From: Legionellales bacterium
GTDB lineage: Bacteria > Pseudomonadota > Gammaproteobacteria > JABCZS01
DNA: 64,000 nucleotides
Direction of reading: 5' to 3'
NCBI GenBank assembly: GCA_041660525.1
Contig: JBAZWD010000001.1
Coordinates: forward strand, 224,022 to 288,021
The first letter of the stretch is position 1; each line of letters begins with the position of its first letter. Position numbers: made by a program. This document shows positions 48,001-51,000 of this stretch, one piece after another.

Positions 48001-51000
48001 ACTTTTCGTTTATTTCCACAAGCACAAGAGATTTATTCCTGGTGGGATTATCGCACGTTTGCATTTGCGGGTAATCGAGGTTTGCGGATAGATTTATTGT
48101 TAGCCAACCCAGCTTTGTCAAAACAAATTCAGCGTTGTTGGGTTGATATCCGTCCTAGAACTTGGGAGAGGCCTTCTGATCATGCGCCGGTATTAATTGA
48201 ATGTAATATACCATTGCAAGGAGCGTAGCAAATGCCACGCTCGCAATGATAAACACTAGAATGAAGAGTTATCGTCGTTAAAAGGATTAACAGACGCAGT
48301 GTTTTGACTCATTTGTGGAGCAACAGGCGCTTGGTCACGTGTTACTTTTTTAACTTTTTTGATGGTTTTCGCCGCAGCTTTCTTAGGCTTAGCACTTACA
48401 GCTGATTTTTCTTTCTTTTTCCAATCACTGTTAAATTGTGCAATCGCTTTGGTTAAACCGTTTAGTCTGTCTTCTTGAGATTTAGCATCTTGCGCTGTTT
48501 TGTGTAAATCAGCATGTTGCTTTTGGATTTTTTTCAAACCAGCAGCGCCTTTAGCAATAGATTTTTTTGCAGTAGCTAAGGCTTTCTTGCCAGTTTTGCT
48601 GCTTTTAATTGCTAATTTTTTAGCAATCGCATCGTGTTTAGCAACAGCGCTGTTATTTTTTTTCTCAGCAGCAGCTACTTTCTTTTGTGCACTAGCAGCT
48701 TGCGTTGAAGCTTTTTTAGATTCTGCTTTAGCAGCGGCCAATGCTTTTTTAAGTGTTGCGGCTAGATTTTTTTCGATAGCTTTCACTTGAACTTTTTGAG
48801 CTTTGGGTTTTTTAGCAGCAGATTTTTTAACTGCACGCTTTGCTGTTTTACGAGTAGTAGTTTTTTTGCGAAGTTTTGGCATGGATATTCTCCTAAAAGT
48901 TTAAAAATAAATGTACAGTTGCACTTTAAATCAAAAAATAATAAACAGCAATAATTATTAATGGTAAACTACTTTAATTCAATACGTTTTTTTGTTTTTT
49001 TTATGTTGGGAGAAATAATATGACTTTTGTTGTGACTGAAAACTGTATTCGTTGTAAATATACGGACTGTGTAGAGGTTTGTCCCGTTGATTGTTTTCAT
49101 GAAGGGCCGAATATGTTGGTGATTGATCCCGATGAGTGTATTGATTGCGCATTGTGTGAACCAGAATGTCCGGTGAATGCAATTGTTTCTGAAGATGATC
49201 TGCCTAGTGATCAAGCCGAATTTTTGACACTCAATGCACGCGTGTCAAAAAAATGGCCAGTAATTACAAAAATGAAAGCAGCACCTGATGATGCAAAACA
49301 ATGGGAAGGTGTTTTAAATAAGCGCGAATTTTTTAAAGAAGAGTAAGCGTGCGTGCGCGAATGTCGCAAATTATTGTAAGCTTATGCTTAAAATCGTGTC
49401 AGATAAAAAAAAATATTATTTTTTTAAAAAAGATTTGATGTGAATAAAATCGCGTAACCCTTTGATTTATATAATTGCAATAGCGATCTTTGTGCGATTA
49501 CAATCACTTAGCAATGAAAACTTCTTGTAAGATCACATTGCAAGTTTGCAAATACTTGTTATAGTTACTTTAATACCAAATGGAATGGGTTGAATTTAAT
49601 ACAGGGTTCTGCACGCTCAACAAGGATCGTTGGACGTTAATTTCGTTGGACATGGATGTCCAACGTTTTCTTAAAGGCGGCCTTCGGGTCGCCTTTTTAT
49701 TTATATGTGATGTCATATGTTAAATACCACCCAGTTGCAATCTTATTTAGAACAAGACCACGTGGCGAGAGGCATCTTCCTATTTTTACTGCTGATACTA
49801 CTTCTCATTATTTTCAATATATTCAAAATTAGTTTTACGCCGCAAAGCCAGTCTGTTGCCGTTGAAACGATTACCCATACACATAATCATGTATTTGTAG
49901 CCAGTCCCTTGTTTGGCCAATCTCCGAACTCCGGCGTATTACAAGAAACGCGACTAAGTTTAAATTTAAAAGGGATTTTTGCAGCTTCTACTTCTGCAAC
50001 CGGCTCTGCTGTAATTGGCACATCGAAGGGCGAACGGATTTATATTGTAGGGGATACCGTAGAAGGTGCTATTATACAAGATATTCAACCCGATTATGTG
50101 GTGTTAGAATTCCAAGGTAATCAAGAAATATTACGCTTGCCAGAGGGAGAACGCCTGACAAGCTCCAAGTAGAAGAACGGACTCATGCTAAAACGAATAA
50201 TGTATCCTGTTTTGACATTGTGTTGCTGTTTTATGACAGTCATTGCGCTTGCGCAAGAACCTTTACCTCCGCTACCGCAACAAGCCGATTTGCGTCAATG
50301 GAATTTGCAAAACGTAGATGTCAAAAACGTTGTGGAAGAAGTCGCACGCGTCACCGGCAAAAACTTTATTATTGATCCCAATTTATCGGGTAACGTCACC
50401 GTTATTTCTAACCAGCAAATGACGCCTGACGAATTGTACGAATTATTTTTATCCATGTTACAAGTGTTAGGTTATGCCGCTGTAGAAAGTGCAGATGCAA
50501 TTAAAATTGTGCCCGATGCAAAAGCAAGACAATTAGGCACTTTTATTGCCACAGATGCACAACCAGGTTCTCGCGATGCAATTGTTGCGCGCGTGATCAG
50601 TGTTGAACATGTGCCTGCCGCACAATTAGTGCCCGTATTACGTAATTTAGTTTCTCCAGAAGGACATTTAGCAGCTTATGCACCTTCCAATAGTTTATTA
50701 GTGGTTGATCGTGGTGAGAACGCAACAAGGCTCGCAGATATTGTTCATAAATTAGACAGAGCAGAGACAGATGGCATTGATATGATCATGCTCGAAAATG
50801 CTTCTGCTGATGAAGTTGTCGCTTCTCTTGAAGCGTTAGTGGCCGTACGTCGCCAAGGTGATGCTGCAGGTGGACAAGTCGCTATATCTTCGGATGAGCG
50901 CAGTAATAGTATTTTATTAAGTGGTGATAAAAGTAGACGTTTACAATTACAAGCGATCATTGCCCAACTGGATGTTACAGTTGAAGGTGAAGGCAATACG

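What the first reader, a model, noticed from the sequence alone, without database searches (positions are those of the whole stretch)
49526..49703. Candidate RsmZ/CsrB-family sRNA with GGA-loop hairpins and intrinsic terminator, immediately downstream of fdxA and upstream of the T2SS operon
Between fdxA and gspC lies an untranslated stretch of about 140 nt with five or more GGA motifs. One is presented in the 4-nt loop (UGGA) of a perfect 9-bp hairpin (CGTTGGACA/TGTCCAACG). The stretch is capped by a canonical rho-independent terminator (GGCGGCC…GGTCGCC + U-run). This is the architecture of CsrA/RsmA-sequestering sRNAs. In Pseudomonas, rsmZ is known to lie next to fdxA, so the linkage fits. 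About 40-60 nt upstream of the GGA region is TGTAAGATCACATTGCAAG, reminiscent of the GacA/LetA upstream activating box (TGTAAG-N6-CTTACA). The terminator sits only 14 nt before the gspC ATG, so T2SS transcription must either start inside or downstream of this element or read through it.
Basis: partly seen in the sequence, partly recalled or inferred. Interest (0 to 1): 0.6.

Follow-up and report, generated by a model that had tools for sequence, protein, structure and literature searches.

The report
Conserved CsrA-sponge-like small RNA gene
Between a ferredoxin gene and a protein-secretion operon of an uncultured Legionella relative sits a conserved gene for a roughly 131-nt RNA that looks like the decoy RNAs bacteria use to soak up the regulator CsrA, an ordinary kind of regulator seen here in a lineage where it had not been catalogued.

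Summary
The fdxA-gspC spacer (49347-49716) carries five GGA motifs, a 9-bp hairpin with a UGGA loop, and a strong intrinsic terminator that ends 14 nt before gspC.

Nine related metagenomic loci, all from uncultured Legionellales, keep the same synteny. They show a discrete gene: an invariant promoter (TTGCAA-16-TGtTATAGT), an inferred 128-135-nt transcript (window 49572-49702), a 60-nt invariant core, and a terminator with compensatory changes. There is no conserved ORF.

The real box is TGTAAGCTTATGCTTAAA at 49375-49392, 11 of 12 to the consensus and the only such hit in 64 kb. It lies a fixed 183-186 nt upstream of the -10, with a conserved IHF-like site in between. This is the layout of E. 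coli csrB.

No Rfam Rsm or Csr model matches. There is no sequence similarity or shared synteny with L. pneumophila RsmY or RsmZ.

Best reading: a LetA/GacA-activated, CsrA-sequestering sRNA, a new member of a known class. CsrA binding and transcription were not tested. No promoter was found between the terminator and gspC in the window, so the secretion operon may depend on terminator read-through. That is an inference.

The parts
49375..49392 (+). Upstream activating sequence TGTAAGCTTATGCTTAAA. It is a GacA/UvrY/LetA-type 18-bp inverted repeat, centred about -188 from the inferred start.
   Evidence: It matches 11 of the 12 specified positions of TGTAAGN6CTTACA. It is the only hit with at most 1 mismatch in the 64-kb window; 0.12 are expected by chance. 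It is conserved with 1-2 mismatches in all 10 homologous loci, at a fixed 183-186 nt from the -10 hexamer.
49455..49467 (-). IHF-like site AATCAAAGGGTTA (consensus WATCAANNNNTTR), centred about -111, preceded by an A/T-rich tract at about 49403-49431.
   Evidence: It is an exact consensus match. There are 15 such sites in the window against 8.5 expected, so a single match alone is weak evidence. In all 10 loci the specified bases TAA....TTGAT are invariant while the four N positions vary, and the spacing to the -10 is 103-105 nt.
49500..49512 (+). Conserved box ACAATCACTTAGC at -72 to -60. Its role is unknown.
   Evidence: It reads ACAAnyACTTAGC in all 10 loci, 59-60 nt from the -10.
49526..49537 (+). 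Only TCACA is conserved.
   Evidence: It is not within 2 mismatches of the consensus. TGTAAG is replaced by TGTGAT, TGTAAA, TGTCAA or TGTGAC in relatives.
49538..49565 (+). Promoter: -35 TTGCAA (49538-49543), 16-nt spacer, extended -10 TGtTATAGT (49557-49565).
   Evidence: It was found by the consensus scan, 9 of 12 with a TG extension. The 40-nt stretch CACATTGCAAGwTTGCAAATACTTGTTATAGTTA is conserved in all 10 loci, identical except at position w (A or T). The same site was found in L092 and L125.
49572..49702 (+). Inferred sRNA transcript of 131 nt. The start is inferred as the 7th nt after the -10. The end is the terminator U-tract.
   Evidence: Homologues are 128-135 nt. Nucleotide identity to the window averages 87.6%, against 67% for gspC and 67% for the upstream spacer. 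A 60-nt core is invariant in 10 loci. The covariance model scores 120-161 bits on all homologues and finds nothing else in the window. There is no conserved ORF.
49581..49611 (+). SL1, the variable 5' hairpin. UGGAAU (49581-49586) pairs with GUUCUG (49606-49611). The first GGA (49582) lies in the stem.
   Evidence: A 5-8 bp helix is possible in every homologue. It lengthens to 8 bp in L092 and L125 through changes on both arms. In most relatives the apical part carries an extra GGA (UUGGAUU), which is GAA in the window.
49613..49637 (+). SL2: ACG-CUCAAC [AAGGAUC] GUUGG-A-CGU. It presents the A-AGGA-U motif (GGA at 49624) in a 7-nt loop.
   Evidence: This is the MFE fold of the invariant core alone and of full-length L088, L091, L092 and L125. 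In the window it lies 1.7 kcal/mol above an alternative fold. The sequence is invariant, so there is no covariation.
49644..49665 (+). SL3: CGUUGGAC [A-UGGA-U] GUCCAACG, with GGA at 49654. GGACAUGGAUGU differs at only one position from the CsrA SELEX consensus RUACARGGAUGU.
   Evidence: The hairpin was found by the scan. The 8-bp stem is invariant. The loop varies as AUGGAU, AUGGAA, AUGGAUC and AAGGAUA while GGA is kept. The SELEX consensus and the preference for GGA in hairpin loops are quoted from PMC4347634.
49673..49702 (+). Intrinsic terminator: AAAGGCGGCC-UUCG-GGUCGCCUUU followed by UUAUUU.
   Evidence: Found by the scan. It is present in all homologues with 100% of cells paired. Two pairs changed on both sides and one pair changed on one side only.
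49717..50172 (+). gspC-like gene, the first gene of gspCDEFG. It starts 14 nt after the terminator U-tract. It is context rather than part of the sRNA.
   Evidence: PF11356 T2SSC. NCBIfam GspC is below its cut-off, while GspD, GspE, GspF and GspG are above theirs. No promoter-like site lies between 49566 and 49716 on the + strand.

Best explanation
This is a gene for a roughly 131-nt non-coding RNA of the CsrB/RsmY/RsmZ functional class. The proposed mechanism is as follows.

1. A LetA/GacA/UvrY-type response regulator binds the 18-bp inverted repeat at 49375-49392.
2. IHF-type bending at about -111 helps that regulator activate the sigma-70/sigma-S-type promoter at 49538-49565.
3. The transcript folds into a variable 5' hairpin, two adjacent hairpins that display AAGGAUC and AUGGAU loops 30 nt apart, and a strong intrinsic terminator.
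4. These loops, plus further GGA motifs, bind CsrA dimers and titrate them away from mRNAs.

Shown here: the gene's anatomy, its purifying selection, the conserved box, site and promoter with fixed spacing, the terminator, and the absence of a coding frame.

Inferred: transcription, the start site, regulator and IHF binding, CsrA binding, and titration.

Secondary inference: in the window lineage no promoter separates the terminator from gspC. Part of gspCDEFG transcription may therefore come from read-through of this terminator.
For: - Discrete gene. The promoter-like site and terminator flank 131 nt. Both are conserved in 9 other loci from related uncultured Legionellales that share the synteny priA, xthA, Lys-rich gene, fdxA, sRNA, gspCDE.
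- Selection. The sRNA is 87.6% and the promoter 88.6% identical to the window. gspC and the upstream spacer are each 67%, and fdxA third codon positions are 60-71%. A 60-nt core is invariant. ORFs in the region differ in frame and length between relatives: 47, 19, 4, 46, 59 and 0 codons.
- CsrA-type motifs. There are 5 GGA in 75 nt, which is top 0.1-0.4% density. GGA is kept where flanking bases vary. Two GGA lie in 6-7-nt hairpin loops in the fold that is the MFE for the core and for 4 of 8 distinct full-length sequences. SL3 nearly matches RUACARGGAUGU (PMC4347634). L. pneumophila RsmY and RsmZ fragments fold into the same kind of short-stem A(N)GGA-loop hairpins.
- Regulatory layout. There is one box match in 64 kb at 1 mismatch or fewer, with 0.12 expected, and it sits in the right spacer. 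Box-to-(-10) spacing is 183-186 nt and IHF-like-site-to-(-10) spacing is 103-105 nt in the nine loci where the aligned site was located. E. coli csrB has its UvrY inverted repeat centred at -183/-182 and needs IHF (PMC4682653). IHF cooperates with LetA at L. pneumophila rsmY and rsmZ (PMC4273665). Candidate Rsm genes beside fdxA in Alcanivorax (L010) and Modicisalibacter (L062) have their box at a broadly similar distance upstream of the GGA-rich part.
- Criteria. Three of the five Kulkarni et al. criteria are met and two are inconclusive (PMC1488887).
Against: - No Rfam Rsm or Csr family matches, even at E <= 10 on the 391-nt spacer. The same search also missed the candidate Rsm genes of L010 and L062, which have a GacA box, many GGA and a terminator. 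The negative result is therefore weak.
- Motif count is low. There are 5 GGA but only 3 distinct A(N)GGA and 1 strict AGGA/ARGGA.
- In the window's own MFE fold, most GGA are paired. That fold is 1.7 kcal/mol below the two-loop fold.
- The helices that display the GGA loops are invariant, so covariation cannot support them. Changes on both sides occur only in the terminator and a small 5' helix.
- A 60-nt invariant core is more conservation than a simple sponge needs.
- No csrA, letA or letS gene is in the window or the fetched loci, so the partner proteins are assumed from what is known of Legionellales.
- No second copy was found. Only 64 kb of the genome could be searched.
Confidence: 0.68

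Rival explanations
1. The element is mainly a 5' leader or transcription attenuator of gspCDEFG. Transcription from the 49538-49565 promoter ends at the terminator or reads through into the secretion genes. The conserved alternative pairings, or a bound factor such as CsrA, decide which. The short RNA would be a by-product.
For: - The terminator ends 14 nt before the gspC ATG, and no promoter-like site lies between 49566 and 49716.
- The sRNA-gspC adjacency is kept in all 10 loci.
- Two invariant copies of CGUUGGAC compete for one GUCCAACG, giving near-isoenergetic folds within 0.3-2.4 kcal/mol in eight of the nine sequences folded.
- This reading is compatible with the best explanation rather than exclusive of it.
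Against: - Neither alternative fold involves the terminator stem, so no terminator/antiterminator pair is visible. The terminator forms in every fold.
- In L092 and L125 the terminator is separated from gspC by 70-90 nt of unconserved sequence carrying promoter-like sites that match 10 of 12. The sRNA module therefore stays intact where gspC may have its own promoter.
- A distal activator box with an IHF site is the hallmark of csrB/rsm genes.
Confidence: 0.15
2. It is a regulatory sRNA that acts in another way, by base-pairing with mRNAs or by binding another protein. The GGA motifs would be incidental.
For: - The 60-nt invariant core, including invariant stems, suggests sequence-specific constraints beyond loop motifs.
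- Only one strict AGGA/ARGGA motif is present.
- Coxiella CbsR12 shows that CsrA-binding sRNAs of Legionellales can also base-pair with mRNAs (bioRxiv 10.1101/679134).
Against: - GGA is the element kept in the variable 5' region and in the variable SL3 loop.
- The SL3 loop nearly matches the CsrA SELEX consensus.
Confidence: 0.12
3. The conservation is at the DNA level. CGTTGGAC-N8-CGTTGGAC-N6-GTCCAACG would be an operator array for a DNA-binding regulator of the gsp operon, not an RNA structure.
For: - An 8-bp perfect palindrome with a 6-bp spacer, plus a third direct copy, is invariant in 10 loci.
- There is no compensatory change in these helices.
Against: - The repeats lie downstream of a conserved promoter and upstream of a conserved intrinsic terminator with compensatory changes. 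This makes sense for an RNA and not for an operator.
- The palindrome's spacer varies in length from 6 to 7 nt while keeping GGA. That fits a loop and does not fit operator spacing.
Confidence: 0.04

Closest known systems
Legionella pneumophila RsmY and RsmZ (the LetA/S-RsmYZ-CsrA cascade)
   Same: - Same order, Legionellales.
- Similar size: RsmY is about 110 nt per PMC5928044. About 130 nt for RsmZ is from my memory.
- Few GGA sites. The CbsR12 preprint describes CsrA binding with only four sites as 'in a fashion similar to' L. pneumophila RsmY/Z.
- Short-stem hairpins with A(N)GGA loops.
- An intrinsic terminator.
- Activation by a GacA-family regulator with help from IHF (PMC4273665).
   Different: - No detectable sequence similarity to the 50-57-nt RsmY and RsmZ probe regions. 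Alignment scores equal those of shuffles.
- Different loci. L. pneumophila rsmY lies between gyrB and lpp0005, and rsmZ between lpp1662 and lpp1663, next to lpg1697 (PMC1488887, PMC10117105).
- In the seven Legionella and Tatlockia loci read, the spacer is absent and coding sequence follows fdxA at once, GGA-poor and with no terminator. I read it as a DinG-like helicase gene without testing that identification.
- L. pneumophila lspC (lpg0895) has a different locus tag from its other lsp genes (lspI is lpg1360 in the same table). That it is unlinked from lspDE is my recollection of the literature.
Pseudomonas RsmZ (Rfam PrrB_RsmZ, RF00166)
   Same: - Lies next to fdxA (PMC1488887, Table 1).
- GacA-box-dependent, GGA-loop sRNA of similar length.
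- The box lies far upstream of the promoter.
   Different: - No covariance-model match.
- In Pseudomonas the gene converges on fdxA and follows rpoS. Here it runs in tandem downstream of fdxA and no rpoS is adjacent.
- Fewer GGA motifs.
E. coli and Salmonella CsrB (Rfam RF00018)
   Same: Same promoter architecture: an 18-bp UvrY inverted repeat centred at -183/-182, and a requirement for IHF (PMC4682653). Here the box is centred about -188 with an IHF-like site at about -111. One relative, L088, even has the csrB-type left half TGTGAG.
   Different: - CsrB is much longer and carries many more GGA sites than the 131 nt and 5 here. V. fischeri CsrB1/2 are 416-420 nt with 21 sites (PMC1488887). 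The figures of about 369 nt and about 18-22 sites for E. coli CsrB are from my memory.
- No sequence or covariance-model similarity.
Coxiella burnetii CbsR12 and CbsR1
   Same: These are Legionellales sRNAs with only 4-5 A(N)GGA sites in stem-loops. They were proposed as RsmY/Z equivalents and are absent from Rfam's Rsm families. CbsR12 binds CsrA-2 in vitro (bioRxiv 10.1101/679134).
   Different: CbsR12 also base-pairs with mRNAs. A PmrA-like site rather than a GacA box lies at its promoter. I did not compare sequences because none was available.

Membership tests
CsrA-regulating sRNAs (five criteria of Kulkarni et al. 2006, PMC1488887) | Located in an intergenic region | tested here: met
   The spacer is 370 nt, between fdxA (ends 49346) and gspC (starts 49717). 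No conserved ORF lies in it.
CsrA-regulating sRNAs (five criteria of Kulkarni et al. 2006, PMC1488887) | High concentration of AGGA/ARGGA motifs | tested here: inconclusive
   There are 5 GGA in 75 nt, which is top 0.1-0.4% density in the window. Only 3 are A(N)GGA (AUGGA, AAGGA, AUGGA) and only 1 is a strict AGGA/ARGGA. Relatives have 5-6 GGA, and L092 has 3 strict motifs.
CsrA-regulating sRNAs (five criteria of Kulkarni et al. 2006, PMC1488887) | Rho-independent terminator | tested here: met
   A 10-bp stem with 6 G-C pairs, a UUCG loop and a U-tract at 49673-49702. It is conserved, with compensatory changes, in all homologues.
CsrA-regulating sRNAs (five criteria of Kulkarni et al. 2006, PMC1488887) | Predicted structure shows GGA repeatedly in loops or unpaired regions | tested here: inconclusive
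   The fold with AAGGAUC and AUGGAU in loops is the MFE for the invariant core and for L088, L091, L092 and L125. In the window, L095, L083 and L085 an alternative helix that buries them is 0.5-1.7 kcal/mol more stable, and L082 adopts yet another fold. Because the local hairpins are transcribed first, the two-loop fold should form first. That is an inference.
CsrA-regulating sRNAs (five criteria of Kulkarni et al. 2006, PMC1488887) | Conserved upstream UvrY/GacA-type site | tested here: met
   TGTAAGCTTATGCTTAAA at 49375-49392 has 1 mismatch and is the only such hit in 64 kb, with 0.12 expected. It is conserved in 10 loci with fixed spacing.
CsrA-regulating sRNAs (functional definition) | Binds and titrates CsrA, and the genome encodes CsrA and a GacA/LetA-type regulator | not testable with these tools
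   No csrA was found in the window or in any fetched locus by tblastn. The rest of the MAG could not be read. Binding needs an experiment.
Rfam RsmY (RF00195), PrrB_RsmZ (RF00166), RsmX, CsrB (RF00018), CsrC (RF00084) | Covariance-model score at or above the family's gathering threshold | tested here: not met
   There are no matches at gathering score in the window. No Rsm or Csr family appears even at E <= 10 on 49340-49730; the best hit is the unrelated ncS025 at 24 bits against a threshold of 46. The same scan also missed the candidate Rsm genes in L010 and L062.
Orthologue of L. pneumophila rsmZ or rsmY | Sequence similarity to RsmZ or RsmY | tested here: not met
   Local alignment to the reverse complements of the published northern probes (PMC5928044, Table S2) scores no better than shuffles: 55% and 82% of shuffles score as high. 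Only 50-57 nt of each RNA was available.
Orthologue of L. pneumophila rsmZ or rsmY | Shared genomic context | tested here: not met
   L. pneumophila rsmY lies between gyrB and lpp0005, and rsmZ between lpp1662 and lpp1663, next to lpg1697. In seven Legionella and Tatlockia loci no spacer follows fdxA. GGA-poor sequence that I read as a DinG-like helicase gene starts at once; that identification was by eye.
Pseudomonas-type rsmZ locus | Position between fdxA and rpoS, convergent with fdxA | tested here: not met
   The gene is adjacent to fdxA, but on the same strand and downstream of it. The neighbours are priA, xthA, a Lys-rich gene and gspCDEFG, and no rpoS. Convergent fdxA-rsm arrangements are seen in L010 and L062.

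The most novel reading that the evidence does not exclude
The sRNA gene doubles as the promoter and leader of the type II secretion operon. In the window lineage gspCDEFG has no promoter of its own. It would be expressed only by read-through of the sRNA terminator, so secretion would be wired directly to the LetA/GacA-CsrA switch. The invariant duplicated CGUUGGAC segments would form a conformational switch, sensitive to CsrA or formed during transcription, that sets how many GGA loops are displayed and perhaps how much read-through occurs.
Probability: 0.12. Interest if true: 0.6.

Novelty: new member of a known kind. Interest (0 to 1): 0.35.

Why it matters
CsrA sponges diverge so fast that homology models do not carry over between genera. 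Here Rfam finds nothing, and it also finds nothing for the candidate Rsm genes of two other genera in the same search.

This case gives a ready-made alignment and covariance model for a clade of uncultured Legionellales. It suggests that the LetA/GacA-IHF-sRNA-CsrA circuit, with its csrB-like promoter geometry, extends beyond Legionella and Coxiella.

It also adds a third lineage in which an Rsm-type gene sits beside fdxA, which hints at an old linkage.

The tight junction with the type II secretion operon gives a testable link between the Csr switch and secretion. None of this changes how such systems are thought to work.

Tried and rejected
- Rfam at gathering score on the whole window, and at E <= 10 on the spacer, gave only chance hits.
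- Rfam on 20 fdxA loci gave only tRNAs.
It returned nothing closer than 74% identity and no homologous sRNA. It did show that the seven Legionella and Tatlockia loci have no spacer after fdxA.
- A small-protein reading was rejected because the frames are not conserved.
- Similarity to L. pneumophila RsmY and RsmZ probe regions: none.
- A second copy in the window: none. The next best covariance-model hit is 14.7 bits and is the same palindrome read on the other strand.
- The metagenome pattern GGATCGTTGGACN{6,16}CGTTGGAC gave 38 stretches. Only three, representing two distinct sequences, were true homologues. Those inspected among the rest are (CGTTGGAC)n-like tandem repeats in G+C-rich DNA.
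- tblastn for csrA in all held DNA: nothing.
- My first structural model, GGUUG/CAAC plus SL3, was replaced by the four-hairpin model after folding the divergent homologues.
- The LetA consensus for L. pneumophila could not be retrieved. PMC2888818 is not held, so no LetA-specific motif test was made.
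Full report
**1. The observation**

The window is 38% G+C.
- fdxA occupies 49020-49346 (NCBIfam FdxA_Protbact).
- A short GspC-like gene (PF11356) starts at 49717 and is followed by gspD, gspE, gspF and gspG.

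- Five GGA on the + strand lie at 49582, 49624, 49632, 49648 and 49654.
- A 9-bp hairpin with a UGGA loop lies at 49644-49665.
- A terminator lies at 49673-49696, followed by a T-run that ends 14 nt before the gspC ATG.

Only 0.1% of 110-nt windows on the + strand, and 0.4% on the - strand, hold five GGA. The RNA folds better than shuffles, with z between -3.4 and -4.1.

**2. Relatives**

The GspC protein is annotated at NCBI as coming from a 'Legionellales bacterium' MAG. GspC homologues of 58-94% identity led to eight distinct metagenomic contigs. One DNA-pattern scan of metagenomes added two more distinct homologues.

All share the order priA, xthA, a Lys-rich gene, fdxA, a spacer of about 360-480 nt, then gspC, gspD and gspE. 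A 36%-identical GspC (L093, L094) has a different upstream gene and no such element.

The genome-collection scan with FdxA returned nothing closer than 74% identity. It showed that in seven Legionella and Tatlockia loci no spacer follows fdxA. GGA-poor sequence that I read by eye as a DinG-like helicase gene begins at once.

**3. A discrete, selected, non-coding gene**

Across the ten loci the stretch from about -75 to the terminator is conserved far beyond its surroundings.

| Region | Mean nucleotide identity to the window |
|---|---|
| Promoter | 88.6% |
| sRNA | 87.6% |
| fdxA | 84.5% |
| gspC | 67% |
| Upstream spacer | 67% |

- fdxA third codon positions are 60-71% identical in the five relatives where the frame was aligned.
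- The promoter TTGCAA-16-TGtTATAGT is invariant.
- A 60-nt core is also invariant: CACGCTCAACAAGGATCGTTGGACGTTAATTTCGTTGGACA..GTCCAACGTTTTC.
- Taking the 7th base after the -10 as the start, the transcripts are 128-135 nt, and 49572-49702 in the window.
- ORFs in the region differ in frame and length between relatives, so it is not a small-protein gene.
- A covariance model built on the family scores 120-161 bits on every homologue and finds no second copy in the 64-kb window.

**4. Structure**

Two invariant copies of CGUUGGAC (49628, 49644) compete for a single GUCCAACG (49658).

Fold C has four hairpins:
- SL1, a variable 5' helix of 5-8 bp that lengthens through changes on both arms in L092 and L125.
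- SL2, UCAAC[AAGGAUC]GUUGG.
- SL3, CGUUGGAC[AUGGAU]GUCCAACG.
- The terminator.

Fold C is the MFE of the core alone and of L088, L091, L092 and L125. In the window, L095, L083 and L085 a long helix (fold B) is 0.5-1.7 kcal/mol more stable, and L082 adopts yet another fold. Because SL2 is transcribed before the competing 3' arm, fold C should form first. That is an inference.

The SL3 loop varies (AUGGAU, AUGGAA, AUGGAUC, AAGGAUA) and always keeps GGA. GGACAUGGAUGU differs at only one position from the CsrA SELEX consensus RUACARGGAUGU, in which GGA sits in a hairpin loop (PMC4347634).

Covariation is thin because the sequences are so similar.
- 97.8% of cells are paired.
- Four pairs changed on both sides, and 0 of 500 shuffles reach that number.
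- All four pairs lie in the terminator and in a small 5' helix of my first model.
- The GGA-presenting helices never vary, which says nothing for or against them.

**5. Regulatory region**

Its TGTAAG is not conserved.

The real candidate is TGTAAGCTTATGCTTAAA at 49375-49392.
- It matches 11 of 12 positions.
- It is the only hit with at most 1 mismatch in 64 kb, where 0.12 are expected.
- It is conserved in all ten loci at 183-186 nt from the -10.

Between it and the promoter lie an A/T tract and an exact IHF consensus on the - strand (49455-49467). The specified bases of that site are invariant while its four free positions vary, and the aligned site keeps a spacing of 103-105 nt to the -10.

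This is the geometry of E. coli csrB, which has a UvrY inverted repeat centred at -183/-182 and needs IHF (PMC4682653). IHF is reported to cooperate with LetA at L. pneumophila rsmY and rsmZ (PMC4273665).

A further conserved box, ACAAnyACTTAGC at -72 to -60, is unexplained.

**6. Comparison with known families**

Against the five criteria of Kulkarni et al. (PMC1488887):
- Met: intergenic location, a terminator and an upstream site.
- Inconclusive: motif density, because there are 5 GGA, 3 A(N)GGA and only 1 strict AGGA/ARGGA.
- Inconclusive: GGA in loops, because two folds compete.

No Rfam Rsm or Csr model matches. That test is insensitive outside the source genera. The same scan missed the candidate Rsm genes of an Alcanivorax MAG (L010) and of Modicisalibacter (L062). 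Each has a perfect or 1-mismatch GacA box, 9-17 GGA and a terminator, and converges on fdxA.

The published northern probes (PMC5928044, Table S2) gave 50-57 nt each of L. pneumophila RsmZ and RsmY. There is no similarity above shuffles. Those fragments do fold into the same kind of short-stem A(N)GGA-loop hairpins.

The L. pneumophila genes lie elsewhere, rsmY between gyrB and lpp0005 and rsmZ next to lpg1697. Pseudomonas rsmZ is next to fdxA but converges on it and follows rpoS. Here the gene runs in tandem with fdxA and no rpoS is near.

The element therefore works like an RsmY/RsmZ/CsrB RNA. It is not a member of any catalogued sequence family.

**7. Relation to the secretion operon**

In the window and its six nearest relatives, only about 14 nt separate the terminator U-tract from the gspC ATG. 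No promoter-like site lies between the sRNA promoter and gspC.

In L092 and L125 the gap is 70-90 nt, is not conserved, and carries promoter-like sites that match 10 of 12. The sRNA module is therefore autonomous. In the window lineage, however, gspCDEFG may be transcribed largely by read-through.

Read-through of an sRNA terminator into a downstream gene has a precedent in E. coli sgrS-setA (from my own knowledge). No terminator/antiterminator alternative is visible, since the terminator forms in all folds.

**8. Verdict**

This is a real, conserved sRNA gene. It is most probably a LetA/GacA- and IHF-activated CsrA sponge in a clade of uncultured Legionellales, so it is a new member of a known kind.

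Not shown here:
- Transcription.
- CsrA binding.
- The presence of csrA and letA in this genome; csrA is absent from the held DNA.

Unexplained:
- The extreme invariance of the 60-nt core.
- The duplicated CGUUGGAC.
- The box at -72 to -60.

Noticed in passing
window 44555-44690, - strand: This is a long imperfect hairpin of about 90 nt (CCAAACGGGUGGCCGGAGGUUUUAUUUUAG...CUAAAAUGAAACCGCAGGACCGGAGCCCGUUUGG), with MFE -47.5 kcal/mol and z = -3.8. It lies in the spacer upstream of what look like a vapB/vapC toxin-antitoxin pair (44258-44491 and 43863-44261, - strand; identified from the translations only). It is the only other non-coding spot in the window with five or more GGA per 110 nt. It has no Rfam match at gathering score.
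   Followed up: partly
window 48256-48882, - strand: This gene encodes a 208-aa protein very rich in Lys and Ala, resembling a histone-H1-like or AlgP-like basic protein. It is conserved immediately upstream of fdxA in all related loci. It matches no NCBIfam family and has no Pfam hit on record.
   Followed up: no
L010 3310-3662 and L062 3320-3740 (- strand): An Alcanivorax MAG and Modicisalibacter tunisiensis each carry a GacA box (0 and 1 mismatch), then a GGA-rich stretch (9 and 17 GGA) and an intrinsic terminator. Both converge on fdxA, as Pseudomonas rsmZ does. Rfam's Rsm and Csr models did not detect either at gathering score. Only 2 of the 80 fdxA loci have such a box within 900 nt.
   Followed up: partly
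L002, L011, L013, L014, L015, L021, L026 (just after fdxA): In Legionella and Tatlockia genomes the fdxA stop codon abuts or overlaps the start of the next gene, which I took by eye to be a DinG-like helicase (no family search was run). There is no intergenic spacer there, so the fdxA-sRNA-gspC arrangement is specific to the window's clade.
   Followed up: partly
window 49628-49665: There are two invariant direct copies of CGTTGGAC, 16 nt apart, plus one inverted copy. They give two near-isoenergetic folds. The 60-nt core that contains them is identical in ten loci whose GspC proteins are only 58-67% identical. That is much more constraint than GGA loops alone would explain.
   Followed up: partly
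window 49500-49512: The box ACAATCACTTAGC is conserved at -72 to -60 of the sRNA promoter in all ten loci. It is neither the GacA-type box nor the IHF site, and its role is unknown.
   Followed up: no
L096-L133 (metagenome hits): Those of these metagenome pattern hits that I inspected are (CGTTGGAC/CGTTGGAT)n-like tandem repeats in G+C-rich DNA, many from the same few samples (Ga0307408, Ga0307416). They are unrelated to the sRNA.
   Followed up: partly
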